IMG/VR virus record: IMGVR_UViG_3300015245_000007
Location: 1-63,889 of that record
DNA: 63,889 bases
Direction: 5' to 3' (one strand)
From: a virus
The notes below the pieces were generated by a model that was not told where the DNA came from, ran no database searches, and worked only from the letters and a program-made list of their open reading frames with translations. A program made the position numbers and the translations under genes. This document shows, in pieces, positions 51,587 to 63,889 of this stretch (the first letter of the stretch is position 1; each line of letters opens with the position of its first letter).

Positions 51587-51590
51587 GTCG

Positions 51591-51875
51591 TCAACTCCCC
51601 TCCATGATGATTTTCGGTTTCTCGCCATAGCGCGGCGCAAGCAATGCAGGCGCCAGCGGAGCGCGGAGCGTGGTGCCATAGGCGCCGATCCACGGTTGGT
51701 CCGGATTGCCCTCGGTGCACTCGATGCCCTTGAAGCCAAATTCAACGCCGCAGTCGCGGCACCAGACGCGCACGACGAACATAAACTCGACGCGATCGGT
51801 CATCGGCACCAGCAAGCGCGCCACCTGGTTCTGCACCTGAAACCGTTCGTGCTTGCAGCTATTCGGTATCGACAT
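51591..51875 (-). CDS. hypothetical Cys-containing protein
   Basis: 94 aa; C7, CRDC, C53. Confidence 0.45.
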   Translation of the reverse strand: MSIPNSCKHERFQVQNQVARLLVPMTDRVEFMFVVRVWCRDCGVEFGFKGIECTEGNPDQPWIGAYGTTLRAPLAPALLAPRYGEKPKIIMEGS

Positions 51876-52440
51876 TGATCGTTCCTAGCTCCACTTCGAC
51901 GCCGGGAAATTCCGCCATCAGCACCTCGAGGCGGTTGAGCGCCGCGGCCTGGTGCTGCAGGGGACCGCGCACGGCGATCCAGAACACGTCATCGACCGAC
52001 GACGTCGCGACGCGCTTCACCTCGAGCGGATCCCCGTCATCACGCATGGACTCGAGCTCGTCCGCATCAAAGCCGGCGGCGCCGAGCAGCTCGTCATCAC
52101 CGATGGAGTCGACCACCTGGCGCAGCGTGGCGGCGTTCCAGTGCGAGTCCTCGGGCAGCTTGTTGAGCGCCAGGCCGAGCGCCGAGTACAGCGCCGGCGT
52201 CAGGCCCTCGACGACGATGCACATTTCGTTTGTTCGGCCGAGACGCAGCAGCGCCTGCAGCGTCGCGTGGCCGCCGATGATCTGGCCGTCGGGCTGTACG
52301 ATGATCCAGTCGACATATCCGAATGTATCTATTGACTCGGCAATGTTCGCGATCTGCGCGTCGCCGTGCTCACGCGCATTGCGCGGATCATTCTTGAGCG
52401 CGGCGAGATCGAACGCGCGATTAGTAACAGTTGCGGCCAT
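51859..52440 (-). CDS. ParB-like nuclease (ParB N-terminal/Srx) domain protein
   Basis: LKNDPRNAREH..IVQPDGQIIGGHATLQAL; 193 aa. Confidence 0.6.
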   Translation of the reverse strand: MAATVTNRAFDLAALKNDPRNAREHGDAQIANIAESIDTFGYVDWIIVQPDGQIIGGHATLQALLRLGRTNEMCIVVEGLTPALYSALGLALNKLPEDSHWNAATLRQVVDSIGDDELLGAAGFDADELESMRDDGDPLEVKRVATSSVDDVFWIAVRGPLQHQAAALNRLEVLMAEFPGVEVELGTINVDTE

Positions 52441-52648
52441 CGGCTTTCTTTCTCGCGAAGTGATCATGCAGGACAATCATGCCGCCGGCATAGACGCCAG
52501 GTCCGGTACGCAACACCGCCGCCATCTCATACTTTGCCCATGCATGCAGAATGCCGGTGGGCGATTCCCAGACGATCCACTCTTTGCGCGATTGGTCTTT
52601 GCGCAGCATGAACCCGAAGGTGCTCGGGTGCCCGACGTTGCCGCTCAT
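52421..52648 (-). CDS. hypothetical protein
   Basis: 75 aa; ATGA coupling upstream. Confidence 0.4.
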   Translation of the reverse strand: MSGNVGHPSTFGFMLRKDQSRKEWIVWESPTGILHAWAKYEMAAVLRTGPGVYAGGMIVLHDHFARKKADGRNCY

Positions 52649-52980
52649 GTGCCGACCTTTGTGCCGTCATCGCACCAGGTAAAATTGCCGGCGGCGCCGA
52701 TCGAGAAATAGCTGCGGCAGGTACAGCAGAACGTCGAGGTGTAGTAGCTCGGATCGCGCGCCATGGTCTCGGCGCATTGTACGGGCGCCGTCGTGACACC
52801 GCCGCATATGCTGTGGAGATAGTCGCGGCGGACCGGCCGCTTCGTCGGCGTCGTCATCAGCTCGGTGGGGCACATCGCCCAATGATCGGCGTGCTGACCG
52901 TCGGCCAGGCGCTCCGCGGTCGGCGCCGGCGAGCTCGCCGGCATGGTTGGCTCTTCGCCCTTGACGGTGCACCTGGTCAT
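52645..52980 (-). CDS. hypothetical Cys-rich protein
   Basis: ATG 52980 (TAATG junction); 111 aa. Confidence 0.45.
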   Translation of the reverse strand: MTRCTVKGEEPTMPASSPAPTAERLADGQHADHWAMCPTELMTTPTKRPVRRDYLHSICGGVTTAPVQCAETMARDPSYYTSTFCCTCRSYFSIGAAGNFTWCDDGTKVGT

Positions 52981-53183
52981 TAGCCGTCCGCCATGATGGT
53001 CTGCGCTTTGATGCACGCCTGGCGCATAGCCTCGATCGCCGCGACACCGCCGAAGCTATTATCAATGCCGGCGCGGACATTGGTGGCCAGCGCCAGCATG
53101 TCGAGCCGGTCACTATGCTTTTCGAGCTCGAGCGCGAACAGCTCGCGCAGCTCGGTGTCACTCAGAATGCATCTCAACGTCAT
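52980..53183 (-). CDS. hypothetical small protein
   Basis: ATG 53183 with GGGAGA SD; 67 aa. Confidence 0.45.
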   Translation of the reverse strand: MTLRCILSDTELRELFALELEKHSDRLDMLALATNVRAGIDNSFGGVAAIEAMRQACIKAQTIMADG

Positions 53184-53601
53184 GGCTGCGTTTCTCCCTG
53201 AGCTTGGCGCGGATCCAGCCCGCGCATATTGGCGCATTGGTGATGCGCTTGCCATCGTCCGTCACGTGCGATTCGAATAGCGCATTGCCGGTCGCGCAGG
53301 CCTCGCGCGCGTCGAATGGCAGGCGCTTGTGGCAATAGAACAGGCCGTCGCCCTCGACCGTGTTGCGGATGATCTGCCAGAACCGCCCGTCGACCTGTTC
53401 GGGCGAACCCGCCATGAAGGCGCAATTGGTGCAGGGCTCGAGCGCCGGTACCAGACGCGTCTCACGTTCCCATGCCTTGCCGCAACTCACGCACCCGTCG
53501 ATCATCACCACGCCGTTGTGTGCTTCGGCTGCAGACACCGCGCGGACGTCGCCGCCGCCGCAGGCGGGGCACGTGTCGCCGGCGATCGCGAGCAACGTCA
53601 T
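53158..53601 (-). CDS. hypothetical multi-CxxC zinc-finger protein
   Basis: CPACG, CVSCG, CTNC, ..FYCHKR..; 147 aa. Confidence 0.5.
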   Translation of the reverse strand: MTLLAIAGDTCPACGGGDVRAVSAAEAHNGVVMIDGCVSCGKAWERETRLVPALEPCTNCAFMAGSPEQVDGRFWQIIRNTVEGDGLFYCHKRLPFDAREACATGNALFESHVTDDGKRITNAPICAGWIRAKLREKRSHDVEMHSE

Positions 53602-54035
53602 TCTGCACCTGGTGCGGTGTAGAGCTCGGCGCGCACCGCGGCGTCTTTCGCCTCGAGCAGCTTGCGCAGCGCGACGGTGCGCTCAGGATTGCGCGGAAGA
53701 TCCCGCACGATCTTATGCGCCATCTCGCCGAACGGCCTTGACACGCGCGCCAGGCGCTCAGGCAAATGCGAATAGGCGAAGAACTGCAAAATCGGTTCGT
53801 GGTCGGGATGTGGCATCGTCGACTCCGGTTTAATGTTGATGGGGTCTCGCAGAGTTAAGCACGCGCACACGCCGCGCTGACCGCAGCGCGGACATACGCC
53901 GGCAACGATTTTATCGAACGCCACACGCCACGGACATTCGAGGCAGCGCGTCTTGTCGGTCGGATAATCGATCGGCGGGCAATCGTCACAAAGGCCGCCT
54001 GGAAGCTCGAGGCCGTCAAGGCGATGTATCATCAT
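53598..54035 (-). CDS. Cys-rich N-domain fused to a conserved helical phage domain (..ALRKLLEAKDAAVRA)
   Basis: CDDC..CLEC..CPRCG..CAC N-terminus; C-terminus FFAYSHLPERLARVSRPFGEMAHKIV..RTVALRKLLEAKDAAVRA. Confidence 0.5.
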   Translation of the reverse strand: MMIHRLDGLELPGGLCDDCPPIDYPTDKTRCLECPWRVAFDKIVAGVCPRCGQRGVCACLTLRDPINIKPESTMPHPDHEPILQFFAYSHLPERLARVSRPFGEMAHKIVRDLPRNPERTVALRKLLEAKDAAVRAELYTAPGAE

Positions 54036-54295
54036 GGCTTAATCAGCCTCCCGCCAGGCGCGCGGATCAAAACCGCATTCGGATAGACTTCCTTGAACGC
54101 CGCCATCACCTGCGCGTGGTCTGTGTCGTCGAGGTACATAACGATCGGCGCCGCATCATCGAGCGAGTCATCGCCGCAGCGGCCGACTTCGGCCGACACG
54201 AACGCCATCAGCTTCGCGACCTGGTCGCCCTGGCGCAGCATGTTGTCCCGCGCCAGATCATCGAGAAATTCTCTACAGCGATCGCGCAGCGGCAT
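54032..54295 (-). CDS. hypothetical protein
   Basis: ATG 54295, 4 nt after upstream stop; 87 aa. Confidence 0.45.
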   Translation of the reverse strand: MPLRDRCREFLDDLARDNMLRQGDQVAKLMAFVSAEVGRCGDDSLDDAAPIVMYLDDTDHAQVMAAFKEVYPNAVLIRAPGGRLIKP

Positions 54296-54299
54296 GCGC

Positions 54300-54755
54300 T
54301 TAAACCTTTGTCGGGAAGATGGAAAAATCCCTGCGGCGCTCGTCAAGCAGCGGAACGCCGCGACGTGCGGCTTCCTTTTCAAGCAGCCTCACTCCGCTGT
54401 CGTTGGTCTCGCACCCGGCGATGATAAACTTGGCGCCGATGCCGATACGCGTAAAATCAAATTCCTTGCCGATGCCCTTGAGCATTTCCTCGAGAGCCAG
54501 GCGCGGGATTTGGATCATCACGACGGGGACGCCGTCGCCTGTGCCTTCCGGGATCACTGCGAACACCGGCTTGCGATTGATGGCAGCGGCGCCGCCTTCA
54601 GCCTCGCGCGTGAGACCGATGCCATGCATGTCGATCGTGCCATCGCTTGCAAACGCTTGATCGTATCCGGCAACGCGCAGCTTGCCGGCGATCTCATCAT
54701 AGGTGCCGGGCGAAACTTCCAGCTCGGCATAGGTGTGGGTCTGGCGCAGTGTCAT
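54300..54755 (-). CDS. hypothetical protein
   Basis: ATG 54755 with GGAGG SD; 151 aa. Confidence 0.5.
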   Translation of the reverse strand: MTLRQTHTYAELEVSPGTYDEIAGKLRVAGYDQAFASDGTIDMHGIGLTREAEGGAAAINRKPVFAVIPEGTGDGVPVVMIQIPRLALEEMLKGIGKEFDFTRIGIGAKFIIAGCETNDSGVRLLEKEAARRGVPLLDERRRDFSIFPTKV

Positions 54756-54858
54756 GGCGATCGCCTCCGGTTGAGGCGCGCAGCGTATCCGCACCGAAAT
54801 TATTCGGCAAGTGTGGAATAGATCAATTCGGCCATGGCGAGCGCGACGAAGGCCGCGA

Positions 54859-54972
54859 TCAGACAGACAATCGAAAAGCCAACGAGGCCGCGCAGGTCAG
54901 ACCATAGATCGTCCAGAGCCCGCCGGCGGCCATCAGGTAGAGCACCAGATATCCGGTCAGCATCGCTTTCAT
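54859..54972 (-). CDS. possible 37-aa hydrophobic peptide
   Basis: ATG one codon after the DUF3309 stop, same frame (TGA GCC ATG); MKAMLTGYLVLYLMAAGGLWTIYGL.. Confidence 0.3.
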   Translation of the reverse strand: MKAMLTGYLVLYLMAAGGLWTIYGLTCAASLAFRLSV

Positions 54973-54975
54973 GGC

Positions 54976-55140
54976 TCAGAGCCTCCCGAGCAGCACCAGG
55001 ATCAGCAGAATCACAATTACCAGGCCGAGGCCACCGCCGCCGTAATAGCCGGAGCCGTAGAACGGCGCGCCGCCTATGCCTGAGAAGCCGCCGAGCAGCG
55101 CGATGACGAGAATAATCAAAATGATCGTGCCGAGTGACAT
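54976..55140 (-). CDS. DUF3309-family small membrane protein (54 aa)
   Basis: MSLGTIILIILVIALLGG..GGGLGLVIVILLILVLLGRL is the family pattern; GGAGGG SD; below the ORF-track cutoff. Confidence 0.65.
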   Translation of the reverse strand: MSLGTIILIILVIALLGGFSGIGGAPFYGSGYYGGGGLGLVIVILLILVLLGRL

Positions 55141-55331
55141 GGCGAATCCCTCCTGTGACGGACATCACGGCTGGGACCATAGCAGAATGAGGCACCAGAC
55201 GATGACGAACAGGAGCAACGAGTTCGCGGCCCGAATGATCCGCCGGCGCCACGGGATCGGCACGCGCCACCACGTCGGCGGATACGCAGGATGCGGCCGC
55301 ACCTCGCGGCGATATCGATTAAGCTGCGGCG

Positions 55332-55907
55332 TCACGGTCCCGACCCATGAGGCGGCACGCGCCTTCCTGGGTCGGCGCGCTCAAGCATGTCAGGCCACAG
55401 GCGCAACATCGTTGTGCGCGCATTGGTGATGGTCAGAGCCAGGCCTGGCGATGCGGTCTTTCGCTTTTGCTCGAGCAGCTCATAGACGTGAACAACCGCC
55501 ATCCATTCGAAGTCGTGCGGCTTGCCAGACGGCATATCGTCGAGCGGGTTTCTTCCGGCGTGCAGCTCGCGCGCGAGGCGCGCATGGTTCGGCGAGACGA
55601 ATGGATTAGGTTGGCCGATCAGGCGCGCGAGCTCGTTGAGCGGATCGGCCGACGCTTTCACCGAGCCGTCGCAAATCTGTTCACCGCGCAGCGAGAACGT
55701 CGACTCCGGCCAAGTGGTCTCGGCGATCTCGAACGCGCCGGCGTTGAACCGCCCGATCGGCGACAACTCCGATTCTGGCGGTCCCCACGCTCGCAAGCGC
55801 CATGGGCGCAGCATCCCGGCCAGCACCGACACGAAGATGGCGATCGCAGTAAGCGCGTGCATCCACCAGGGCATTTCGCGCGCGGTCTCGTAAAGGGTTT
55901 GCATCAT
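55332..55907 (-). CDS. membrane-anchored hypothetical protein
   Basis: ATG 55907 in ATGA overlap; TM ALTAIAIFVSVLAGML; 191 aa. Confidence 0.5.
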   Translation of the reverse strand: MMQTLYETAREMPWWMHALTAIAIFVSVLAGMLRPWRLRAWGPPESELSPIGRFNAGAFEIAETTWPESTFSLRGEQICDGSVKASADPLNELARLIGQPNPFVSPNHARLARELHAGRNPLDDMPSGKPHDFEWMAVVHVYELLEQKRKTASPGLALTITNARTTMLRLWPDMLERADPGRRVPPHGSGP

Positions 55908-56311
55908 GGCAGCTTGTCCATTGCTGTGAGGGTTGAGAGCGCGCGGTGCAGCGCGGGCGGGTCGTTCAAGATCGTGGCGATATCGCCGAACTGGTTGAAC
56001 AGGGGCACGCGCTGGCCAAGCACGTTGGTGCACCACAGCTCCGCCATGCCGTGAAAGTCTCGCATGATGATTCCTGATCGCGCGCCTGGTGCCGGCTTCT
56101 CTGGCTCTGCCGGCTTCACCTCGCGCCAGGTCGTGTTCGTCGCACCAGCACTCGAGAACGAGCCAGGCGCGCCTGCGCTCCGCGCGCCCATGGCTTGACG
56201 CAATACGGATTCGTGCGTCGCCGTCGCCACTTGCTCGAGCGCAGCCTTGAGCCGCGCCTCGAGCTGTGCGCGGGTCTTTGCGTCGGAGGCATCCCAATTC
56301 ATTTGCGCCAT
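55904..56311 (-). CDS. hypothetical protein, first gene of the leftward 56311-50295 operon
   Basis: ATG 56311; 135 aa; palindromic promoter element 24 nt upstream. Confidence 0.5.
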   Translation of the reverse strand: MAQMNWDASDAKTRAQLEARLKAALEQVATATHESVLRQAMGARSAGAPGSFSSAGATNTTWREVKPAEPEKPAPGARSGIIMRDFHGMAELWCTNVLGQRVPLFNQFGDIATILNDPPALHRALSTLTAMDKLP

Positions 56312-56334
56312 CGTTGCAGCATGCCATTGCCGAT

Positions 56335-56358
56335 TATTTTCGGCAATGCTAATCTGCG
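56335..56358. promoter_or_regulatory. perfect palindrome CATTGCCGA-ttattt-TCGGCAATG (operator/bidirectional promoter candidate)
   Basis: 9-bp arms; contains GCCGA-N6-TCGGC; TTGCCG -35-like hexamers readable on both strands. Confidence 0.55.
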
Positions 56359-56533
56359 CGCGATCGCGGATGCCGGTGAGACTCTGAGAGCCCCGGCGCT
56401 GCGGTCACGATCGGCCGGCGAGACCCCGTGTTTGCGCGTCCTGAACATGACGGCTAGGAGGCAGCGCGCAAGTGAACGAGGCCGGCGCCCGCGGGTTTCC
56501 TCTCACCGGCTCATCTTGCCGGCCGATCACCTC

Positions 56534-56580
56534 TTGCATCGCCGATAATATTCGGTCACCCTGCGCCGGTCGGGTGAAAC
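56534..56580 (+). promoter_or_regulatory. promoter-like element with GCCGA-N6-TCGGT operator and downstream hairpin
   Basis: CACCTCTTGCAT (the same CACCTCTTGC precedes the 317 element), GCCGATAATATTCGGT 56541-56556, hairpin TCACCC-N10-GGGTGA 56556-56577. Confidence 0.45.
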
Positions 56581-56830
56581 GCCGTTTGTGGATGCGGTCT
56601 GTGTGCGCACCGCTCTATAGCCGGCGAAAATCGGTGCTGCTCGGAGCGCCTGTGCCCCTCTCAACCGCCGGAGCTGCGCGCACTGCGGCACCGGCGGGGA
56701 GTTTCAGACGCGGGCCTGAGTGAGAGTGCCCCCTCCCCTGCGCACCCGCAGGGGTTCAAGCTCAGGCGCGCTGGCCGCGCGAGCGCCGTCGACCAACCCC
56801 GGGTCGGCGGCGTTCGTGTCTCGAGGGACC

Positions 56831-57127
56831 ATGATCAGCGATAGCGCCAGCCGTCTCGGCCTCTTGCCCTATGAGCGCGTCGTGCTCGAGGTGTTCTGCA
56901 TCAACGAGCCTCTATGCCGCCGCGAGGTGCACCAGCTCGCCGGCTACTCCGAGGGGACATGCAGTCGTGCCATGGCGAAGCTTCGGCGAATCGGGTTGCT
57001 CGAGCGAACGCAGTTCGGGCGGTTCAACTGTCCATGGACGGCGACCGATCGCGGCAAGATCGCGTTCGCCCTCATCGCCGGTCGCGAATTGATACGGCGC
57101 AATGCGCGCCGCAGACAGCCCGCATAA
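56831..57127 (+). CDS. MarR-like winged-helix DNA-binding protein
   Basis: LLPYERVVLEV..REVHQLAGYSEGTCSRAMAKLRRIGLLER; GAGGGA SD. Confidence 0.55.
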   Translation: MISDSASRLGLLPYERVVLEVFCINEPLCRREVHQLAGYSEGTCSRAMAKLRRIGLLERTQFGRFNCPWTATDRGKIAFALIAGRELIRRNARRRQPA

Positions 57128-57482
57128 TTCACGCCCAAATCACGGTCAGGTCACGATAGGAACGGACGGCGAACCTGCAGTCTGGCGCTGCAGCTTGCGG
57201 ACAGGCCATGAACGCAGTCGCGCCGCCGAGCTGGTGAACAGTTCGGCGGCGCGGGGGTGGTGAACGCCGGGCTCGCCTTCTGGGTCCGCCGAGCAACACG
57301 ATCGTGCGCCGCGGCCGCGCAGCGGTCAAGCGAAGAGCTGACTTAGACCCTTCGGGCCTCGAATGAGCCCGCGAAAATTATCGCGCTCGTCATCACCGGC
57401 AGCATAACGAGCATCACACCAAGCCCGCACGCGCAGCATGCGTTTCACGTGAAAAAACCGCTCGAGGTAATCGCCAGCATTA

Positions 57483-57543
57483 CCGGGAACGATCGCAAAA
57501 ATCGTTCCCGGCAATCGTTCCCGGTTCCCGAAATCGTTCCCGG
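57483..57543. repeat. iteron cluster 2 (CCGGGAACGAT family)
   Basis: Forward copy 57483-57493 and inverted copy 57501-57511 form a palindrome around CGCAAAA; more inverted copies at 57514-57524 and 57533-57543, partial TTCCCG 57525-57530. Confidence 0.8.
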
Positions 57544-58068
57544 CATAACCTCGCACGCGCGAGCCGGCCCCAAAGCGGCCGTTCGGTTATAGGCTCTGAT
57601 GCATTGGAGATTGTAGTCTCTGGCACTCGGCGCGGAAAGAGCGAGCGCCATAGCGCGACGCGACTTTACGCGCGGTGAGAGTTAGCAAGGTGGAGAGGCT
57701 GGGTTAAAGATACCGCGCGGGGCAGTTAAGCTCAGATGTTTGAGATACTGTAGGCTGCCTGGCGTCAGCAAGAGGCGCCTAAGAGCGCTGGCGCGCGGCG
57801 CCTTTGCTTCCGCGCGTTCTACTGCTGCGCGAGGCTGATTTCTCGATTGCGCTTATTTTGATCGAAAGAGAAATCACAAGCGCGTGAGGCCGCGTTCGCG
57901 GTGCGTTCTCCGATCGCCATTTTCTCTTACGGCTGCAATAGCTCCTCGCGCGCCAGCGCGTCGCGATCGGCCCGGGATTTGCCCGACATTCACCGGCGCC
58001 AGGTGGTCAAAAGGGGTTGACAGGTTTCCGGCCCCGACCGGGAACGGAGAGGTTTTATATCCTGCCGG

Positions 58069-58165
58069 TTGCGAAAACGAACCTATTGCAATCTTTTCAA
58101 TATTCAGGCACAAACAGATCACGGACGGCGCTGGCCGGTTCCGGACCCAAAGGGGAAAGCCTCAG
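58069..58165 (+). promoter_or_regulatory. conserved promoter/5' leader element, copy A (upstream of radC-like gene)
   Basis: TTGCGA..TTGCAA hairpin, then GGACGGCGCTGGCCGGTTCC hairpin (58123-58142), AAAGGGGAAAG SD, ATG 58166; near-identical core in copies B and C. Confidence 0.6.
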
Positions 58166-58840
58166 ATGACCCTCTCTCCCGCCCAGAAAGCCGCCGCCAC
58201 CCGCCGCGCCCGCAAGGCCGCCATGATCGCCCCCGCCCGGGCGCCCGGCCTCGCCGACGCCGGCCAGCTCGGCGACCTGGCGTTGCTGGCGACTTTCATT
58301 GGCCAGCAGGCCGACGTCTTGATCCGCGAATTTGGCACCCTCGCCGCGACCGTCGCAGCCCCGCTCGAGCGGATCGCCGAGCTGACGGGCACGACCACCG
58401 CGCGGACCGTGAAGGCGCTCGCCATGGCCGCCATCAGCGTTACCCGGGGCGAGCTCGCCGGCAAATGCTGCCTCTCCAGTTTCGCGGCCGTGACGGACTA
58501 CCTCCGGGCCTCCATGCGGACCGAAGGAACCGAGCAATTTCGCGTTCTCTTCCTGAACAAGCGCAACGAGCTGGTCGCCGACGAAGTGATGGGCGTCGGC
58601 ACGATCGACCACGTTCCGGTTTACCCGCGCGAGGTTGCCAAGCGCGCCCTGGAGCTCGGCGCCAGCGCCATCTTTCTTTCGCACAATCACCCGTCGGGCG
58701 ACCCGACGCCGTCGAGCGCCGACGTCGAAATGACCAAAGAGCTGGTCAAGGTGATGGGCGTTTTCGGGATCGCGATTTACGACCACATCATTGTCGGCCG
58801 GAACGACATCGCCTCGCTCAAGGGTCTGCGGATGATGTGA
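58166..58840 (+). CDS. radC: RadC-like JAB/MPN-domain protein
   Basis: FRVLFLNKRNELV..HVPVYPREV..AIFLSHNHPSGDPTPSSADVEMT (JAMM HxHPSG); N-terminal SPAQKAAATRRARKAA motif. Confidence 0.8.
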   Translation: MTLSPAQKAAATRRARKAAMIAPARAPGLADAGQLGDLALLATFIGQQADVLIREFGTLAATVAAPLERIAELTGTTTARTVKALAMAAISVTRGELAGKCCLSSFAAVTDYLRASMRTEGTEQFRVLFLNKRNELVADEVMGVGTIDHVPVYPREVAKRALELGASAIFLSHNHPSGDPTPSSADVEMTKELVKVMGVFGIAIYDHIIVGRNDIASLKGLRMM

Positions 58841-58850
58841 AAAATAAGGT

Positions 58851-58928
58851 TTGCGTTCGCCGATAAAACTCGGCACACTATCCACCTGGGACGGCATAGG
58901 CCGGCCCCCACTCCGAAGGGAAAAGACC
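58851..58928 (+). promoter_or_regulatory. conserved promoter/5' leader element, copy B
   Basis: TTGCGT, GCCGA-taaaac-TCGGC (58859-58874), GGGACGGCATAGGCCGGCCCCC (58888-58909), CACTCCGAAGGGAAAAG SD, ATG 58929. Confidence 0.6.
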
Positions 58929-59465
58929 ATGACGACGACAGCCCCCGAAATGAACGCCGCACACAAAGCCTGGGCGACGCGCCGCGCCCGCGCCGCGGCC
59001 GCCGCGCTGATGACCAGCGTTGCAGCGATGCCGGCACCAGCGCCGGTCGAGGCCAAGCCCGCCGGCGTGCACAACGTCCACACCTCCGCGGATCTGGTCG
59101 GCATCGGCGCCGTTGCGCCCGTGATCTTTCGCGGCACGCAAGCTGTGACTGACTGCCAGCTCGTCGAGATCAGCGTCGACGATTCGGCCGTCGGCTCCGG
59201 CCGCCGCCTCTTCGTCGTGCTCGAGGAAGGCGATAAAATGGTTCGGCTGTTCTCGCCGGCAAAGCTCGTCACGATCACGGTCGACCGAAAGTATTTCGAC
59301 AAATACGGCTACTGGCCGGCGCGCGGCGTGAAGCGCTCGCGCGTCGCCGAGATCATCCGCCGCAACATCGCGCTCGCCGACAAGATCAACGCGGCCAAGC
59401 TCGAGGACGCGGTATCCGACGGCGGCGCGGACGCGGTCGCCGCGCTCCAGCTCCTGGAAGGGTGA
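58929..59465 (+). CDS. hypothetical protein with N-terminal AHKAWATRRARAAAA motif
   Basis: ATG 58929 behind leader B; 178 aa. Confidence 0.6.
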   Translation: MTTTAPEMNAAHKAWATRRARAAAAALMTSVAAMPAPAPVEAKPAGVHNVHTSADLVGIGAVAPVIFRGTQAVTDCQLVEISVDDSAVGSGRRLFVVLEEGDKMVRLFSPAKLVTITVDRKYFDKYGYWPARGVKRSRVAEIIRRNIALADKINAAKLEDAVSDGGADAVAALQLLEG

Positions 59466-59468
59466 GCC

Positions 59469-59705
59469 ATGTCGATTTATCGCAACGTGCTCCAGATGGA
59501 AGTCCGCGCCTCGAGCGGTGATGCAGCGGCGGGCGGCTTTATCGCCGCCTGCCACAGTGGCAACGACGTCCTGACGTGCCGATGGGTCTATGGCCATCCA
59601 CATGAGTGGAAGATCAACGGCAAGATCGTGACCCGGCCGGCGGCCGCGTTGTGGCTCACCGATACGTGGCCAGCGCGCAAGGCAACATGGGGGTTGACGT
59701 CATGA
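59469..59705 (+). CDS. hypothetical protein
   Basis: 78 aa, 3 nt after upstream stop. Confidence 0.45.
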   Translation: MSIYRNVLQMEVRASSGDAAAGGFIAACHSGNDVLTCRWVYGHPHEWKINGKIVTRPAAALWLTDTWPARKATWGLTS

Positions 59706-59911
59706 GAGCGCCCACGATTTCCGAAACCGGCGCGCGCGCGTATCGCGCCGGCATACCGGCATCCGGAAACCCGTTCGCGATCGGCTCGCAGGCGCGCACG
59801 CTCTGGGCGCGCGGCTGGCGCGAAGCGAAAACCGAGGCGGCGATCGCCGCGGCCGGTCGCGCGCTTGACACTTCGCTCGCCGCCACCCGCCGCGCCGTGC
59901 GGAGGCGGTGA
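59702..59911 (+). CDS. Rmf/CrpP-fold-like small protein
   Basis: AYRAGIPASGNPFAIGSQARTLWARGWREAK resembles the Rmf/CrpP pattern; ATGA coupling. Confidence 0.45.
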   Translation: MRAPTISETGARAYRAGIPASGNPFAIGSQARTLWARGWREAKTEAAIAAAGRALDTSLAATRRAVRRR

Positions 59912-59912
59912 C

Positions 59913-60650
59913 GTGGTCCAGCCCGCTACATTTCTGCGTCGCCTCGAGATCGATTCGCGAGCGCGTCGCAAGCAGCCGACACTGATATCGCTTTTCAGCG
60001 GTTGCGGCGGTGCTGCGCTCGGCATCCGCCAGGCCGGATTTGAGGTGCGCGTATTCGTCGAGTTTGACGAGACGTGCTGCGAGACTCTCGCGGCCAATTG
60101 GATCAAGCCGCCGCGCGGCGCGCCGAAGTCAGAGCGGCGGCCGTGGCACCAGCGCCGCGACCCGGTGATAATGCGCGCGGACCTAACCAAGCTCTCGACT
60201 GCCGAGATACTCGCCGCGGCCGAGCTCGCGATCGGCGAGGCCGATTGCCTCGAGGGCGGGTTTCCGTGCCAGGGCTTTTCGACGTCGGGCAAGCGCATGA
60301 TCGATGATCCGCGCAATCGCCTTTACCGCGAATGCGTGCGCGTGATCGGCGAGGCGCTTCCGCGGTTCTTCGTTCTGGAAAACGTGCCAGGCCTGATCAG
60401 CATGGGCGGCGGCACTGTCATGTGCCAAATCTGCGAGGACCTGGCCGAGGTCGGCTATGACGTGCAGTGGGATATTCTCAACGCCGCGGACTTCGGCGTG
60501 CCGCAGAATCGCAAGCGCGTTTTCATTCTCGGCCACCGCGTCGACCACATGCACATTGCCGGCAAGCGCGTCCAGCTCTTCATGGGCGCAGCGCCAGGCG
60601 CGATTTATCACCCCGAGTTTTTCCTCAAACGGTTGGAGAAGATCCGATGA
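59913..60650 (+). CDS. DNA (cytosine-5) methyltransferase, N-terminal catalytic half only (motifs I-VIII)
   Basis: LFSGCGG (I), GGFPCQGFS (IV), FVLENVPGL (VI), QNRKRVFILG (VIII); ORF ends 35 aa later with no TRD or motifs IX/X; GTG 59913 with GGAGG SD. Confidence 0.7.
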   Translation: MVQPATFLRRLEIDSRARRKQPTLISLFSGCGGAALGIRQAGFEVRVFVEFDETCCETLAANWIKPPRGAPKSERRPWHQRRDPVIMRADLTKLSTAEILAAAELAIGEADCLEGGFPCQGFSTSGKRMIDDPRNRLYRECVRVIGEALPRFFVLENVPGLISMGGGTVMCQICEDLAEVGYDVQWDILNAADFGVPQNRKRVFILGHRVDHMHIAGKRVQLFMGAAPGAIYHPEFFLKRLEKIR

Positions 60651-60982
60651 CGCACGACAAGAACGCCGCCGATACGTGCCTGCCTTATGATGCGACCGCG
60701 CGCAATCTCGCCAAGCTCCCCGAAATGTGCGCCGTGTTTCAGCGCCACAATCCTGTCGGTCAGCGTATCTGCATGATCAAGCGCGGCGAGAGCGGATACT
60801 ATGCGACCGATTGGGACGGCTCGCACATGACGCCCGACCAGGCCGAATGGACCGTCAACGAAATCAATTCCCGCCTCGAGGTGACGGCCGCGCAGGCGCT
60901 GGCGATGGTGATCGGTTCAATGAACGGCTGGCACGTCCCGGGCGCGGATCCCGATCGCCACACCGCGCGAGCGTTCGCATGA
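60647..60982 (+). CDS. hypothetical protein
   Basis: ATGA coupling; 111 aa; no methyltransferase motifs. Confidence 0.5.
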   Translation: MTHDKNAADTCLPYDATARNLAKLPEMCAVFQRHNPVGQRICMIKRGESGYYATDWDGSHMTPDQAEWTVNEINSRLEVTAAQALAMVIGSMNGWHVPGADPDRHTARAFA

Positions 60983-61257
60983 GCCGGCCCTCGATCGACC
61001 ACGGGCTGTTGAGCCCAAGCGGGCGCATGAGCAAGCGCGCTCGAGCGGCCGCAATGAAGCGCACCGCGCTCGAGCTCTTCGGACCTGGTGGACTTGCTCG
61101 GCCAGGCCCGCCGCCGCAACCGACGCAGCGCGAGCGCCTGTTGCGCGAGGCCGCGCAGTGTCGCGACTTCGCCGCGCGCGGTCTAACGCCGCGCGCTCTG
61201 CTCAAACAGGCGGAACGCTGCGAGCGTCTGGCCGCCGAGCTCGAGGACAAGCCATGA
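60979..61257 (+). CDS. hypothetical protein
   Basis: ATGA coupling; 92 aa. Confidence 0.45.
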   Translation: MSRPSIDHGLLSPSGRMSKRARAAAMKRTALELFGPGGLARPGPPPQPTQRERLLREAAQCRDFAARGLTPRALLKQAERCERLAAELEDKP

Positions 61258-61466
61258 CCCTCGATAAGCGATCACTCGAGAGCTGGCGCAAGCTGGCGCT
61301 CTACTTCAAAGATCGATACTCGCCGGCGCAGCTCGACGCGATCGCGTGCGCCTGCTTTGAGAAAACCGAACGCGGCGAGGCGACCAACTTGCTGCACGAG
61401 GCCGCGCGGATCACCGGCACGCAATGCCAGTGCATCACGTGTCAGGATATAAGGCGCGCGCCATGA
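61254..61466 (+). CDS. hypothetical Cys-containing protein
   Basis: ATGA coupling; 70 aa; CQCITC. Confidence 0.45.
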   Translation: MTLDKRSLESWRKLALYFKDRYSPAQLDAIACACFEKTERGEATNLLHEAARITGTQCQCITCQDIRRAP

Positions 61467-61765
61467 CGTTGCCCTGTCTCAAAGGCCGGTGTCGGTCGCC
61501 GTTGGCCTGTCATTCGTTCGGCTATTGCCGTGAGCTAAACTTGACGCGCTTCACGGTCGCAAGGCCGGTGCCGGAACGCGCGCCGGCGATATGCGATATC
61601 GGAACATACGACGGCCAGGCTGGTGCGATCATCGATATCGAAGTCGATCACGACCAGGACGAAAGGCGCGCAATGACGTTCGCCGTGATCCAGCTCGATG
61701 GCGGCGCTACAATTCGTTTGAGGTTGCCCGACGTGAACGGGCGGTGGAAGAAACGGGAGACGTAG
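61463..61765 (+). CDS. hypothetical protein
   Basis: ATGA coupling; 100 aa. Confidence 0.45.
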   Translation: MTLPCLKGRCRSPLACHSFGYCRELNLTRFTVARPVPERAPAICDIGTYDGQAGAIIDIEVDHDQDERRAMTFAVIQLDGGATIRLRLPDVNGRWKKRET

Positions 61766-61767
61766 AC

Positions 61768-62370
61768 ATGTGCAGGTTTTTGATATCCGTGGCGCTCGGT
61801 TCGCTCGCCGCGTTTTTTATCCTGGTGATGCTGTTGCCGGCTAGGCAAGCTTGCGCCGGCGCCTGGTATTCGACCGAACCGCCCTCGAGACAGACGCCAC
61901 TGCCGGATTATTCCACCGTGCGAGAGCCGCCCGCGCCGGCGCCGATCGTGACGCCCGCGCAAATCTCAATACCCGCATTAAAGCCGGCCAACCCGCGGCC
62001 GGTACCGGAGAGCGGCACGATCGTGATCGATGGCGGCGACAACATGGGCGGTTCGATCAAGGCGCATGAGGCGCAAGTGCGCGCCGCGATCGCGCGCGGG
62101 CAGAGCGTCGTGCTCGACGACGCAATATGGTCGGCGGCCACGCTCTGGTTGATGGTGCCGGCGGACAAGATCTGCGCGACCGATCGCGCCATACTCGGAT
62201 TTCATTGGATGACCAACATGCTGACCCATGCGCCGATGAAGGACGAGACGGCGCGCGTTTTCAAACTTTATCCCGCGCACGTGCAAGCCGCGATCACGCG
62301 CAAGGGCGGGCTCGGCCCGGAAGATATCCGGATCAAGGCAACAGACCTGGTGCGGAGGTGCGAGCCATGA
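61768..62370 (+). CDS. secreted/periplasmic protein candidate (signal peptide; possibly ClpP/COG3904-like fold)
   Basis: MCRFLISVALGSLAAFFILVMLLPARQACA signal-like N-terminus; Pro-rich linker; 200 aa. Confidence 0.45.
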   Translation: MCRFLISVALGSLAAFFILVMLLPARQACAGAWYSTEPPSRQTPLPDYSTVREPPAPAPIVTPAQISIPALKPANPRPVPESGTIVIDGGDNMGGSIKAHEAQVRAAIARGQSVVLDDAIWSAATLWLMVPADKICATDRAILGFHWMTNMLTHAPMKDETARVFKLYPAHVQAAITRKGGLGPEDIRIKATDLVRRCEP

Positions 62371-62564
62371 CGCCAGAACAACAAGCCGCATATGTCATCG
62401 CGCAGGCAGCTTGCGCGATGGCGGAGATCGCCGGCATGCAAGCTGAAAACCAGATGTGCGCTCTTCGGGGCGAACCGCTCGCCTATGGCGAGGGTGCATT
62501 CACCTCAGTGATCGAGCGGAATTGCATCCACCACAACGGCGTGCTGACCCTCTTTCGGTCATGA
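62367..62564 (+). CDS. hypothetical small protein
   Basis: ATGA coupling; 65 aa. Confidence 0.45.
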   Translation: MTPEQQAAYVIAQAACAMAEIAGMQAENQMCALRGEPLAYGEGAFTSVIERNCIHHNGVLTLFRS

Positions 62565-62630
62565 AGATTTAAAGGCCAAAGGTGAGAAAACGATCCTGTA
62601 AAATAAATTGGCGCCCGCGGTCGAATTGAC

Positions 62631-62709
62631 TTGCGGTCGCCGAGTTTATTCGGCAATCTCTTTTCACAGGGACGGCGCTGGCCGGTCCCCACTCCAGAGG
62701 GAAGCCCGA
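62631..62709 (+). promoter_or_regulatory. conserved promoter/5' leader element, copy C
   Basis: TTGCGG, GCCGA-gtttat-TCGGC (62639-62654), GGGACGGCGCTGGCCGGTCCCC (62669-62690), CACTCCAGAGGGAAG SD, ATG 62710. Confidence 0.6.
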
Positions 62710-62988
62710 ATGTCTAGCTCATTCTCCGTTAACGTCCATGTCGACTACCAGGTCACACCGGCCGGCCAGTCGGTGCAGGTTGTCGCCGGGTACGACATTA
62801 ACCGTTATCCGGGTGCGGGTACCGGCAGCGTGATTGTCGGCCGCAAAATCAATCCCTCGAAGAAAACCCCTTGGGGCGCCCAAGTCGAAGAGCTTTGGGA
62901 AACTCAAGAGGAAGCGCAGGCGGCGGCCGATCGTGCCAACGCCGGAAACTGCGAGGGCATCGCCTTCGCCTCCTACAGCGACGACTGA
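62710..62988 (+). CDS. hypothetical protein
   Basis: ATG 62710 behind leader C; 92 aa. Confidence 0.55.
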   Translation: MSSSFSVNVHVDYQVTPAGQSVQVVAGYDINRYPGAGTGSVIVGRKINPSKKTPWGAQVEELWETQEEAQAAADRANAGNCEGIAFASYSDD

Positions 62989-63030
62989 CCCTCACTTTCA
63001 TCACTCACACACACACCAGGAACCACGATC

Positions 63031-63889
63031 ATGAACACGACCACCACCACCCGCCCCCGCTCCGTCCGCGCCAGCGGCACGACTTTGACGCAGGCCAACG
63101 CGCAGTGGGAAAGCCGCCCGGCCGATCAGCGTTTCGGCTCGCTCGCCGCCATGCTGGCGGTTGCCGACCACGACAAGACGACGGCGACCGTCGCCGAGAT
63201 CAAGGCCAACGCGCTGCGCGCCATCGCACGCGGTCCCGACATCGCGATCGAAGGCGAGGGCATTATGGGCGGCGCGCTCACGAATTGGAGCTTTGGCCAG
63301 CTCGCGCATATCGCCAAAGCGCCGGCCGCCTATCTGCGCACGCTGTCGCCGAAGCTCGCGGCGGCTGCCATCAACGAAGGCCTCGACAAGCACGCCGACG
63401 CCTACACGCAAGAGGATGGCGAGGGCCGCCAGCTTCTGTTTTCCGGCAAGGGCAAAGACCTGACCGCGCGCGCCATCACCTCGCAGAAATACGGCCGCGT
63501 CTGGAATGTGGACTTGATCCGCGAGCTGATGAAGCTCGAGGCCTCGGGCCCGTGGCAGCCCGCGCCGGAGGCCTTCGACGGCTCGCGCGGCTTGTACCTC
63601 GGCGATCGCGACATGTTCGCTTTCATGGTCGATAACGAGCGCCGCATATTCGAGACCGACAAGGGCGGCGGCCTCGGCCGCGGATTCTTCCTGACGAACA
63701 ACGAAGTCGGCGGCGGCGCCTTCAACATTCTGTCATTCCTCTACGAGTATGTTTGCGGCAATCACCGAGTCTGGGGCGCGCAGCAAATCGAAGAGACGCG
63801 CGTGATCCACATCGGCGGCGGCCGTCACGAGAAGGTGCTCGAGACGCTCGGCCGCGAGCTGGTACGCTACGCCGGCGCCAGCGCGAAGG
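63031..63889 (+). CDS. DUF932-family (phage/plasmid-like) protein, N-terminal segment; continues at 1..306
   Basis: ATG 63031 behind CACACACACC-AGGAACCA; ..WSFGQLA..YGRVWN..GLYLGDRDMFAFMV..GFFLTNNEVGGGAF.. typical of DUF932; no stop before the window end. Confidence 0.75.
   Translation, partial: MNTTTTTRPRSVRASGTTLTQANAQWESRPADQRFGSLAAMLAVADHDKTTATVAEIKANALRAIARGPDIAIEGEGIMGGALTNWSFGQLAHIAKAPAAYLRTLSPKLAAAAINEGLDKHADAYTQEDGEGRQLLFSGKGKDLTARAITSQKYGRVWNVDLIRELMKLEASGPWQPAPEAFDGSRGLYLGDRDMFAFMVDNERRIFETDKGGGLGRGFFLTNNEVGGGAFNILSFLYEYVCGNHRVWGAQQIEETRVIHIGGGRHEKVLETLGRELVRYAGASAK

What the first reader, a model, noticed from the sequence alone, without database searches (positions are those of the whole stretch)
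57483..57543. Iteron cluster 2 has opposite polarity to cluster 1, so the two bracket an 8.6-kb accessory module
Cluster 2 has one forward and three inverted copies, where cluster 1 has four forward and one inverted. Across the circular junction, the clusters therefore face each other like multi-site terminal inverted repeats. They enclose the RadC - C5-methyltransferase - DUF932 - HTH arm (57.5 kb through the junction to 2.3 kb). This layout fits several models. One is a bipartite origin. Another is dispersed centromere sites for the orphan ParB-like protein, as seen in some phage-plasmids. A third is the ends of an acquired cassette, in the style of Mu or Tn7 ends, which carry several binding sites each. 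No transposase or integrase is visible inside, which would make a mobile-cassette model unusual.
Basis: inference. Interest (0 to 1): 0.7.

Follow-up and report, generated by a model that had tools for sequence, protein, structure and literature searches.

The report
Second helicase-binding origin repeat array
The two repeat clusters are most likely binding sites for the phage's own replication helicase: one is the usual origin at the end of the helicase gene, and the other is an unusual mirror-image second copy 8.6 kb away, not the ends of a mobile cassette.

Summary
CCGGGAACGAT occurs 7 times exactly (0.10 expected), only at 2237-2322 and 57483-57543. With partial copies, cluster 1 is 4 forward + 1 inverted and cluster 2 is 1 forward + 4 inverted.

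The "opposite polarity" has an ordinary explanation. Each cluster is a complete two-armed array of a widespread origin type. Cluster 1 starts 0 nt after the stop codon of an AAA_25/DnaB-like helicase. All full-length relatives, cultured Rhizobium phage 16-3 and 35 of 37 helicase-linked IMG/VR loci carry such an array there (median 3 nt after the stop, 10 copies).

The helicase ends in a predicted winged-helix domain. Residues in its predicted recognition helix co-vary with the repeat sequence (K/R versus Q; R versus F/I), so the helicase itself probably reads the repeats. This is the logic of SaPI Rep-ori, with an unrelated helicase.

A second array kb away is rare: none in the 37 loci or 16-3. 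Both syntenic relatives (L117, L119) have helicase-type repeats at the head of their own non-homologous arms.

I found no transposase, target duplication or link to ParB.

Best reading: a second origin or auxiliary replication site, similar to P4 ori/crr. Moderately interesting.

The parts
2237..2322 (.). Iteron cluster 1, the helicase-adjacent origin array. It has four forward copies (2237-2248, 2250-2261, 2262-2269 partial, 2270-2281), a 29-nt spacer of 41% GC (2282-2310) and one inverted copy (2311-2322) that abuts the helicase stop codon.
   Evidence: The position matches the family-wide rule, in which the array starts a median of 3 nt after the helicase stop. Relatives.
57483..57543 (.). 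Iteron cluster 2, the finding. It has one forward copy (57483-57494), a 5-nt gap, and inverted copies at 57500-57511, 57513-57524, 57524-57530 (partial) and 57532-57543. It is a mirror image of cluster 1 with a short palindromic centre.
2323..4305 (-). Replicative helicase, 660 aa as called in public assemblies (the longest ORF runs to 4332). Domains in order: a degenerate N-terminal region, a DnaB_N-like domain, an AAA_25 RecA-type ATPase and a C-terminal winged-helix-like domain.
   Evidence: Pfam AAA_25 at 1.2e-30 and DnaB_N at 3.4e-4. PHROGs primase/helicase families. Homologues. PDB DnaB N-terminal domain matches.
2326..2745 (-). C-terminal 140 residues of the helicase: the predicted winged-helix domain and proposed iteron reader. 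The predicted recognition helix includes ADSIKKAIQFAMGKL.
   Evidence: AlphaFold2 model with pLDDT 82 and H-E-H-H-E-E topology. Foldseek top hits are winged-helix domains but are weak. No Pfam model. 1402 representatives in the protein library. Co-variation with the iteron sequence.
58038..58046 (+). Isolated extra iteron core (CCGGGAACG), next to the AT-rich stretch 58040-58130 and just upstream of the probable RadC start at 58166.
57128..58165 (.). About 1 kb without convincing coding potential. It holds cluster 2 and separates the small ORF 56720-57127 from RadC.
   Evidence: Gene calling by codon log-odds. No Rfam family. RNA fold z-score -0.9. No helicase remnant.
58166..63867 (+). First part of the accessory arm between the clusters: RadC-like JAB protein 58166-58840, C5 DNA methyltransferase 59865-60650, small ORFs, and a DUF932-like ORF starting at 63031 that runs across the junction.
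   Evidence: A DNA match to a DUF932 gene of Mesorhizobium phage Cp1R7A-A1.
1..2102 (+). Second part of the arm: the end of the DUF932-like ORF (to 306), ORFs 388-852 and 964-1698 (no family found), and the weak HTH_23 ORF 1629-2102. All converge on the helicase gene.
   Evidence: The genes in this position are not homologous in L117 or L119.

Best explanation
Both clusters are iteron arrays read by the C-terminal winged-helix domain of the phage's own replicative helicase (2323-4305, minus strand).

Cluster 1 is the canonical replication origin of this helicase family. It begins at the helicase stop codon and has two opposed sets of repeats around a relatively AT-rich 29-nt centre, where the helicase would assemble and open the DNA (a self-loading initiator helicase, as in SaPI Rep).

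Cluster 2 is a second copy of the same two-armed module with complete architecture, lying in mirror orientation 8.6 kb away. It sits in a 1-kb non-coding stretch at the head of the accessory operon that converges on the helicase gene. I take it to be a second helicase-loading site: a second origin, or a cis-acting auxiliary site that pairs with the first, as crr does with ori in phage P4.

The 'opposite polarity' follows from the quasi-palindromic build of each array and is not a sign of transposon-like ends.

Shown: the repeats, their positions, the family-wide link to the helicase gene, and the co-variation. Inferred: binding by the helicase domain, origin function, and any role of cluster 2 in replication.

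The confidence of 0.55 is for the whole statement. On its own, the claim that both arrays are helicase-bound iterons and that cluster 1 is the origin stands at about 0.8. The claim that cluster 2 acts in replication stands at about 0.5.
For: 1. Link to the helicase.
- Every context of a full-length helicase homologue has a repeat array starting just after the stop codon: L117/L118 and L127 (TGTCCCGG, 6-7 copies), L119 (6 copies), and L120 and L121 (AGTGACA, 3 + spacer + 3).
- Of 120 IMG/VR loci with TGTCCCG triplets, 37 encode an AAA_25 helicase. In 35 of these the array starts a median of 3 nt after its stop, with a median of 10 copies per 500 nt against a background of 0.27.
- Cultured Rhizobium phage 16-3 has 15 CGTGACA copies directly after p101.
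- Control: GTTCCCG triplets elsewhere in IMG/VR are almost never next to such a helicase (1 weak case in 115 loci).

2. The neighbouring genes are not the binder. The genes next to cluster 1 and the whole arm are not homologous between the window, L117 and L119. The repeat motif is nevertheless nearly the same, so the binder must be a protein the three share.

3. The helicase can plausibly read DNA. Its C-terminal 140 aa fold confidently as H-E-H-H-E-E, a winged-helix topology (pLDDT 82).

4. Co-variation in the predicted recognition helix.
- One position is K/R in 40 of 40 G(T)TCCCG-type proteins and Q in 3 of 3 GTGACA-type proteins. The Q set includes 16-3 p101, which is otherwise close to the TGTCCCG-type L242/L246.
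- A second position is R in all GTCCCG-type and GTGACA-type proteins, but F in the window and I in L058, the only two GTTCCCG-type cases.

5. Architecture. Canonical arrays read as a CGGGAC(A) run, a short palindromic centre, then a (T)GTCCCG run. Both window clusters obey this rule.

6. The second site is not an accident of this genome. L117 has further arrays about 6 kb from its helicase, in the 650-bp non-coding head of its arm. L119 has 4 copies, including a head-to-head pair, in the 550-bp head of its 12.6-kb arm.

7. The arm promoter region has its own operators. The palindromic motif CCGA-W6-TCGG occurs 8 times against 0.42 expected, with two sites at 56330 and 56542. Cluster 2 is therefore not needed as the operator.

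8. SaPI Rep provides an experimentally established precedent for a helicase whose C-terminal winged helix binds short iterons placed immediately downstream of its gene, in two opposed sets (PMC9371898).
Against: - No binding or replication data exist, so everything about function is inferred.
- The Foldseek matches of the C-terminal model are weak (best E 0.36), and P4's origin-binding domain was not among them.
- The co-variation rests on few independent switches: two lineages for Q and two for F/I.
- Cluster 2 lacks an obvious AT-rich unwinding stretch inside the array (5-nt centre). Many canonical arrays also have only short centres.
- A distant second array is absent from 37 of 37 helicase-linked IMG/VR loci (the one candidate, in L156, was a terminator-like hairpin) and from phage 16-3. 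It is therefore not needed for this origin type to work.
- In L117 and L119 the second sites differ in number and orientation. Some sit directly at gene starts or promoters, which fits regulation as well as replication.
- GC skew gives no origin signal.
Confidence: 0.55

Rival explanations
1. Cluster 2 is mainly a transcriptional control site. The initiator helicase, through its winged-helix domain, binds in the leader of the accessory operon and represses it or blocks transcription once helicase accumulates. This would resemble Rep autoregulation in iteron plasmids, or SV40 T antigen at its early promoter. Cluster 1 alone would be the origin.
For: Cluster 2 lies upstream of RadC, in the 5' part of the arm operon. 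A single extra copy sits at 58038, next to the AT-rich stretch before the RadC start. In L117, three copies lie directly upstream of the start of gene 18290. In L119, copies lie in both early divergent promoter regions, including a head-to-head pair about 120 nt before the first arm gene. No other helicase-linked locus needs a second array to replicate.
Against: Cluster 2 has the full five-copy two-armed origin architecture rather than one or two operator-like sites. The promoter region of the arm already carries separate palindromic operators. No sigma-70-like promoter overlaps the cluster. The two roles do not exclude each other.
Confidence: 0.22
2. Cluster 2 is a by-product of how the arm was acquired. 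Recombination between two phages at their shared origin repeats joined modules and left a duplicated origin. The copy has no function of its own, or is a recent relic.
For: The arm differs completely in gene content among the window, L117 and L119, while the helicase module is conserved. This is as expected if the origin is a junction for module exchange. Similarity between the clusters is confined to the repeats.
Against: Cluster 2 holds four exact 11-mers and keeps the canonical layout, which is not the picture of decay. Repeats at the arm head recur in both distant relatives despite unrelated arm genes, which argues for selection. No helicase gene remnant lies next to cluster 2.
Confidence: 0.1
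3. The clusters are the multi-site inverted ends of a mobile or invertible cassette, in the style of Mu/Tn7 or as an invertible segment. The cassette would carry the RadC-methyltransferase-DUF932 module.
For: The arrays are in mirror orientation with a 24-nt perfect inverted repeat. The enclosed genes are accessory and vary among relatives.
Against: No transposase, integrase or invertase was found in the arm or among the proteins scanned elsewhere in the window (about 50 of roughly 95 called ORFs). The flanks CATTA and TCAAC are not duplicated. The outer copy of cluster 1 sits at the helicase stop codon, exactly where the origin array sits family-wide. Non-homology with relatives continues beyond cluster 2 instead of stopping at it. 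Two independent assemblies of the same phage run through cluster 1 into the arm in the same orientation.
Confidence: 0.04
4. The clusters are dispersed centromere (parS-like) sites for the orphan ParB-like protein (12441-14354).
For: A 637-aa protein with weak ParB_N and HTH_ParB matches is encoded in the window. Dispersed centromeres are known in phage N15 (own knowledge).
Against: No ParA-like ATPase was found among the scanned proteins. The arrays follow the helicase gene in more than 40 loci, including phages with no detectable ParB homologue nearby. No homologue of this ParB-like protein was detected on the L117 or L119 contigs by this search (judged from contig lengths), and the loci that do hold homologues lack such arrays. 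The repeat sequence co-varies with helicase residues.
Confidence: 0.04

Closest known systems
SaPI Rep / ori (self-loading initiator helicases of Staphylococcus aureus pathogenicity islands)
   Same: The helicase is also the initiator. A C-terminal winged-helix domain reads short repeats. There are 6-12 iterons immediately downstream of the rep ORF, arranged in two sets pointing in opposite directions around a centre (PMC9371898). Cluster 1 and the wider family found here follow the same plan.
   Different: The helicase here is a RecA-type AAA_25/DnaB-like (SF4-type) protein with a DnaB_N-like domain, whereas SaPI Rep is an AAA+ helicase. The C-terminal domain has no Pfam model and no significant structural match. 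SaPIs are not reported to carry a second array kb away.
Phage P4 ori plus crr, bound by the alpha primase-helicase (own knowledge: Flensburg and Calendar 1987; Ziegelin et al. 1993)
   Same: Two separate clusters of the same short iteron lie several kb apart on one replicon. Both are bound by the C-terminal domain of the replicative helicase protein. The second cluster (crr) is required in cis and works in either orientation.
   Different: P4 alpha is an SF3 helicase fused to a primase and is not homologous to this one. Its origin-binding domain was not among the fold matches. Here the clusters flank an accessory operon. Whether the second site is required is unknown.
Bacillus phage SPP1 oriL / oriR (own knowledge: Missich et al. 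1997)
   Same: Two distant regions of one phage genome carry the same initiator-binding repeats next to AT-rich DNA.
   Different: The SPP1 initiator G38P is separate from the helicase G40P and needs a loader. oriL lies inside the initiator gene.
Iteron plasmids with two arrays (P1 incC/incA, F ori2/incC) and RSF1010 RepA/RepC (own knowledge; review PMC4980987 listed)
   Same: Direct and inverted copies of one short repeat occur at an origin, with a second array that controls it by pairing (handcuffing). RSF1010 RepA, as I recall, is the best-known helicase of the AAA_25 family.
   Different: In those systems the iterons are about 20 bp, helically phased, and bound by a dedicated Rep or RepC initiator rather than by the helicase. 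The arrays flank the rep gene, not an accessory operon.
Rhizobium phage 16-3, region downstream of p101 (NC_011103, 56245-56605)
   Same: A cultured relative of the same origin type: an AAA_25-type protein followed at its stop codon by 15 CGTGACA copies in both orientations.
   Different: It has a single array only and a different repeat sequence. The region carries no annotation in the record, and I found no paper on it in the library.

Membership tests
Initiator-helicase origin with gene-adjacent iterons (functional class typified by SaPI Rep-ori) | Several short repeats in two sets of opposite orientation around a centre | tested here: met
   Cluster 1 is 4+1 around a 29-nt centre of 41% GC. 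Cluster 2 is 1+4 around a 5-nt centre. The same layout appears in 8 printed family examples.
Initiator-helicase origin with gene-adjacent iterons (functional class typified by SaPI Rep-ori) | Array lies immediately downstream of the helicase ORF | tested here: met
   Met for cluster 1, at 0 nt from the stop codon; the family median is 3 nt. Not met for cluster 2, which is 8.6 kb away with no helicase remnant beside it.
Initiator-helicase origin with gene-adjacent iterons (functional class typified by SaPI Rep-ori) | Helicase carries a sequence-specific DNA-binding (winged-helix) domain | tested here: inconclusive
   The model is confident and has winged-helix topology, but Foldseek gives only weak winged-helix matches (E at least 0.36). 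Co-variation of two helix positions with the repeat sequence supports the reading. No binding data exist.
Initiator-helicase origin with gene-adjacent iterons (functional class typified by SaPI Rep-ori) | Homology of the helicase to SaPI Rep (AAA+ type) | tested here: not met
   Pfam AAA_25 plus DnaB_N and PDB DnaB matches. It is an analogue, not a family member.
Initiator-helicase origin with gene-adjacent iterons (functional class typified by SaPI Rep-ori) | Origin binding, melting and firing | not testable with these tools
   This needs EMSA or footprinting and marker-frequency or plasmid replication assays.
P4-type bipartite origin (ori + crr) | Two clusters of the same iteron, kb apart on one replicon | tested here: met
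   Relatives L117 and L119 also have distant second sites.
P4-type bipartite origin (ori + crr) | Alpha-type SF3 primase-helicase with the P4 origin-binding domain | tested here: not met
   The protein is an AAA_25 helicase with no primase domain. The P4 domain is absent from the 50 listed fold matches.
P4-type bipartite origin (ori + crr) | Second cluster required in cis for replication | not testable with these tools
   This needs a deletion of 57483-57543.
Transposon or Mu/Tn7-like ends | Transposase or recombinase encoded within or beside the element | tested here: not met
   No such family was found in the arm ORFs or among the proteins scanned elsewhere in the window, about 50 of roughly 95 called ORFs.
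Transposon or Mu/Tn7-like ends | Target-site duplication flanking the inverted ends | tested here: not met
   The flanks are CATTA (57478-57482) and TCAAC (2323-2327); the latter contains the helicase stop codon.
Transposon or Mu/Tn7-like ends | Presence/absence or inversion of the segment as a unit in related genomes | tested here: inconclusive
   The only close sequences (L115, L116) are about 100% identical and run through cluster 1 unchanged. Other relatives are too distant, and their non-homology extends beyond cluster 2.
ParABS partition site | Sites co-occur with the ParB gene and a ParA partner | tested here: not met
   No ParA was found. The arrays track the helicase, and ParB-homologue loci L130 and L131 lack arrays.
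Lambda-type OL/OR operator pair | Palindromic operators overlapping divergent promoters around a repressor gene | tested here: not met
   Cluster 1 lies between two convergent 3' ends with no promoter. A different palindromic motif, CCGA-W6-TCGG, fills the operator role at the divergent regions.

The most novel reading that the evidence does not exclude
The phage runs two mirror-image, helicase-loaded origins that bracket its anti-defence/accessory operon.

Cluster 2 sits at a point of divergent transcription, so forks leaving it would move in the same direction as transcription on both sides. Cluster 1 sits at a point of convergent transcription. Firing at both would replicate, and so amplify, the 8.6-kb arm first.

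The shared origin repeats would also serve as the recombination joints through which unrelated accessory arms are swapped between phages of this group.

Behind this lies a widespread family of self-loading RecA-type phage helicases. I found no Pfam model for its winged-helix domain and no paper on these repeats in the library I searched. In this family a two-residue code in the winged helix appears to set the origin sequence.
Probability: 0.15. Interest if true: 0.75.

Novelty: new variant of a known kind. Interest (0 to 1): 0.45.

Why it matters
For this finding, the puzzling 'facing' repeat clusters become an ordinary origin plus an unusual second copy. The mobile-cassette and centromere ideas can be set aside.

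More broadly, the comparison exposes a common phage origin type. An AAA_25/DnaB-like helicase carries a C-terminal winged-helix domain that has no Pfam model, with 1402 cluster representatives in the protein library. Its binding repeats start at its own stop codon. This arrangement is present in cultured phage 16-3 and in dozens of uncultured phages.

The apparent residue-to-repeat code (K/R versus Q; R versus F/I) makes origin specificity directly testable by swapping residues. It could also help annotate origins in metagenomic phages.

The rare two-array layout gives a tractable case for asking why a phage would keep two initiator-binding sites around its early accessory genes.

Tried and rejected
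- Rfam and tRNA scans of the window found nothing.
- DNA similarity to cultured phages gave only a 230-nt DUF932 match.
- The IMG/VR scan for CCGGGAACG pairs returned 114 loci. Only one, L058, is a relative; the rest are chance or coding repeats.
- The helicase search in viral contigs with a single protein found nothing. With an alignment it found only the L117 contig and distant prophage forms.
- The genome-contig scan gave a Bradyrhizobium prophage helicase with no downstream array, where the next gene overlaps the stop. The more distant metagenome relatives L122-L125 likewise lack arrays.
- Promoter and terminator scans around both clusters, an RNA fold of 57545-57885 (z -0.9), DnaA-box search and GC skew were all uninformative.
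- The genes adjacent to each cluster were tested as the binder. They are not homologous among relatives and are unrelated to the helicase C-terminal domain.
- Large TGTCCCG 'arrays' in about 90-110-kb high-GC phages turned out, in the one inspected (L194), to be coding low-complexity repeats. The apparent second array in L156 is a terminator-like hairpin.
- No sequence similarity was found between the non-coding arm heads of the window and L117.
- Literature searches for the P4 crr details, for TGTCCCG/CGGGACA iterons and for a 16-3 origin found nothing usable. Statements about P4, SPP1 and plasmids therefore rest on my own knowledge.
Full report
**1. The observation**

The window is 63,889 bp at 63% GC. 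Its two ends overlap by 22 bp, and a 380-aa ORF with a high coding score reads through the junction (63031..306). The sequence therefore behaves as a 63,867-bp circle.

The 11-mer CCGGGAACGAT occurs seven times exactly, against 0.10 expected from shuffles, and only in two places.

- Cluster 1 (2237-2322) has forward copies at 2237, 2250, 2262 (partial) and 2270. A 29-nt spacer of 41% GC follows, then an inverted copy at 2311-2322.

Aligning cluster 1 with the reverse complement of cluster 2 shows the same 4+1 layout. The only difference is a 24-nt longer spacer in cluster 1, and there is no similarity outside the repeats. A 24-nt perfect inverted repeat links the two clusters.

**2. Setting**

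The window is a tailed phage. It has a portal fused to a Mu-F-like domain, tail proteins and a GH25 lysozyme. It also has an early region with an HTH_3 regulator, a YqaJ exonuclease, RecT and a 637-aa ParB-like protein.

Cluster 1 lies in a 220-bp gap between two convergent genes. One is a weak HTH_23 ORF (1629-2102, +). The other is a helicase with an AAA_25 ATPase and a DnaB_N-like domain (2323-4305, -). The inverted copy at 2311-2322 touches the helicase stop codon at 2323-2325.

Cluster 2 lies in about 1 kb without convincing coding potential (57128-58165). This stretch separates the small ORF 56720-57127 from RadC, whose probable start is 58166.

All genes from 56720 through the junction to 2102 are on the + strand and converge on the helicase gene. 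They include RadC, a C5-methyltransferase and a DUF932-like ORF. No integrase or transposase turned up among the roughly 50 proteins I scanned.

**3. Relatives show what cluster 1 is**

The protein database holds five full-length homologues of the helicase, at 37-42% identity. I fetched their contigs.

- In L117/L118, L127 and L119, an array of six or seven TGTCCCGG copies starts within a few tens of bases of the helicase stop.
- In L120 and L121 the array is AGTGACA, arranged as three copies, an AT-richer spacer and three more copies.

Of these, 37 encode an AAA_25 helicase. In 35 of the 37, the array starts a median of 3 nt after the helicase stop. The median is 10 copies in the next 500 nt, against a background of 0.27.

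Printed examples share one architecture. On either strand there is a run of CGGGAC(A), a short and often palindromic centre, then a run of (T)GTCCCG.

As a control, GTTCCCG triplets elsewhere in IMG/VR are almost never next to such a helicase: 1 weak case in 115 loci. Some TGTCCCG hits are simply coding repeats.

Cultured Rhizobium phage 16-3 shows the same arrangement. Fifteen CGTGACA copies follow p101 at 56245-56605, with only scattered single copies in the other 58 kb scanned. The region is not annotated in the record.

Cluster 1 is therefore the local version of a widespread, helicase-linked repeat array.

**4. Which protein reads the repeats**

The genes next to cluster 1, and the entire arm, are not homologous between the window, L117 and L119. 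The repeat motif is nearly identical all the same. The binder must therefore be one of the few shared proteins, and only the helicase is shared with the L120/L121 clade.

The last 140 residues of the helicase fold with confidence (pLDDT 82) into a helix-strand-helix-helix-hairpin topology, which is a winged helix. The Foldseek matches are winged-helix domains (E2F/DP, ORC/MCM, cullin) but are weak, with E at least 0.36. The domain has no Pfam model. It has 1402 cluster representatives, nearly always at the C-terminus of proteins of 430-1100 aa.

In an alignment of 43 such domains, two positions in the predicted recognition helix track the repeat sequence. In the window this helix reads ADSIKKAIQFAMGKL.

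- One position is K or R in all 40 G(T)TCCCG-type proteins and Q in all three GTGACA-type proteins. The Q set includes 16-3 p101, whose domain is otherwise close to that of the TGTCCCG-type L242/L246 (KKKRFQRA versus KRQRFNRA).
- Another position is R everywhere except in the window (F) and L058 (I). These are the only two proteins whose repeats carry the extra T (GTTCCCG).

The number of independent switches is small, but they all point the same way: the helicase reads its own repeats.

This is the logic established experimentally for SaPI Rep proteins. Those are self-loading helicases whose C-terminal winged helix binds 6-12 short iterons. The iterons lie immediately downstream of rep, in two opposed sets (PMC9371898). 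The helicase class here is different: RecA-type AAA_25 rather than AAA+.

**5. What this means for cluster 2 and its 'polarity'**

The canonical array is itself two-armed and reads the same way on both strands. A 4+1 array and a 1+4 array are thus the same unit with the long arm on opposite sides. Cluster 2 is a complete array of this type, and with its short palindromic centre it looks more like the typical family member than cluster 1 does. The inverted orientation needs no transposon-like explanation.

What is unusual is that a second array exists at all. None of the 37 helicase-linked IMG/VR loci has one within the roughly ±7 kb available, and the single candidate, in L156, is a hairpin. 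Phage 16-3 has none.

Both syntenic relatives do have helicase-type repeats at the head of their own arms, even though those arms are unrelated in gene content.

- L117 has five forward copies plus one inverted copy at 17833-17929. It has three more at 18255-18285, directly before a gene start. All lie in a 650-bp non-coding divergent region about 6 kb from the helicase.
- L119 has two CCGGGACA copies and a head-to-head pair. These lie in the 550-bp non-coding head of its 12.6-kb arm.

Number and orientation differ between the three phages. What is conserved is a second helicase-binding site at the far end of the arm, not opposite polarity.

**6. Function of cluster 2**

I favour a replication role: a second loading site, or a cis-acting partner of cluster 1. 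Known precedents, from my own knowledge, are phage P4 ori/crr and SPP1 oriL/oriR. The reasons are as follows.

- Cluster 2 has the full origin architecture.
- It lies in a long non-coding stretch.
- The promoter region of the arm carries a separate set of palindromic sites, CCGA-W6-TCGG. This motif occurs 8 times against 0.42 expected, including at 56330 and 56542, and at 6656 and 6695 beside the HTH_3 gene. These look like the operators of the phage repressor.

The main rival is that cluster 2 lets the helicase regulate the arm operon. The promoter-proximal sites in L117 and L119, and the single copy at 58038 beside the AT-rich stretch before RadC, fit that reading. The two roles could coexist.

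A functionless duplication left by module exchange at the origin is possible. It is disfavoured by the four exact copies in cluster 2 and by the recurrence of such sites in relatives.

**7. Models set aside**

*Cassette ends.* No transposase, integrase or invertase was found among the scanned proteins. There is no target-site duplication (CATTA versus TCAAC). The outer copy of cluster 1 sits at the family-typical position on the helicase stop codon. Non-homology with relatives does not stop at cluster 2. Two other assemblies of the same phage (L115, L116) pass through cluster 1 into the arm unchanged.

*ParB centromere.* No ParA was found. Homologues of the ParB-like protein are few and were not detected on the L117 or L119 contigs. 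In L130 and L131 they follow a DUF87 ATPase, with no such arrays nearby.

*Lambda-like operators.* Cluster 1 lies between two 3' ends and has no promoter.

**8. Verdict**

The feature is a new variant of a known kind. It is an initiator-helicase origin of a widespread type for which I found no description in the library I searched, here duplicated in mirror image around the accessory operon. All functional statements are inferences from sequence, comparison and one structure model. Binding and origin-mapping experiments would settle them.

Noticed in passing
window 6656-6669, 6695-6708, 47150-47163, 54794-54807, 56330-56343, 56542-56555, 58860-58873, 62640-62653: A separate palindromic motif, CCGA-W6-TCGG, occurs 8 times against 0.42 expected. 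Two sites lie in each of the two divergent early regions, beside the HTH_3 gene and at the head of the arm. These are probably the operators of the phage's Cro/CI-type repressor. A similar site (CCGAAACTGTTCGG) is visible in L119 near position 4640.
   Followed up: partly
window 1-25 and 63868-63889; L115, L116: Two other public assemblies of the same phage (18.6-kb contigs from JGI and ENA) end at window position 1 and 25. That is exactly where the window is cut, inside the DUF932-like gene. The window ends overlap by only 22 bp, which is not a usual assembler k-mer. Something at this point breaks assemblies, possibly a shared repeat, strain variation or a real terminus.
   Followed up: partly
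Rhizobium phage 16-3, NC_011103 56245-56605 (L372 4577-4937): Fifteen CGTGACA copies in both orientations start at the stop codon of p101, which is annotated 'DNA polymerase/primase'. The region has no annotation and is a likely replication origin of a cultured, well-studied temperate phage.
   Followed up: partly
IMG/VR loci L132-L251 (35 of the 37 with a helicase), L058: This is a widespread origin type: AAA_25 helicases with a C-terminal winged-helix-like domain (no Pfam model; 1402 representatives). Each is followed at the stop codon by about 10 CGGGACA/TGTCCCG repeats. Two residues of the predicted recognition helix co-vary with the repeat sequence.
   Followed up: partly
window 12441-14354; L130 8078-11923; L131 8031-11713: The 637-aa ParB-like protein has very few homologues. 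In two other phage contigs the homologue directly follows a large DUF87 (HerA/FtsK-like) ATPase gene, which is absent here. Function unknown, and probably not partition.
   Followed up: partly
window 7552-8898: A 448-aa protein with no family match carries internal 51-66-nt repeats (8296-8465, a Glu/Gln/Arg-rich repeat). It is conserved next to YqaJ and RecT in L117 and L119.
   Followed up: no
window 58040-58130: This is the most AT-rich stretch of the region (43-45% GC), directly after a lone iteron core at 58038 and a TTGACA at about 58014. It is a candidate promoter or unwinding element before RadC.
   Followed up: no
window 43245-44613: A radical-SAM protein is followed by a DUF6884 protein at the start of a block of small + strand genes. 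This may be a nucleotide or DNA-modification pair.
   Followed up: no
L194 6300-7720 (and probably the other roughly 90-110-kb high-GC phage contigs L179, L206, L220, not inspected): In L194, dense GTCCCG/CGGGAC 'arrays' of 20 or more copies in two opposed blocks are coding low-complexity repeats (Gly/Thr/Pro-rich) in facing genes, not iterons. They are a source of false positives for motif scans.
   Followed up: partly
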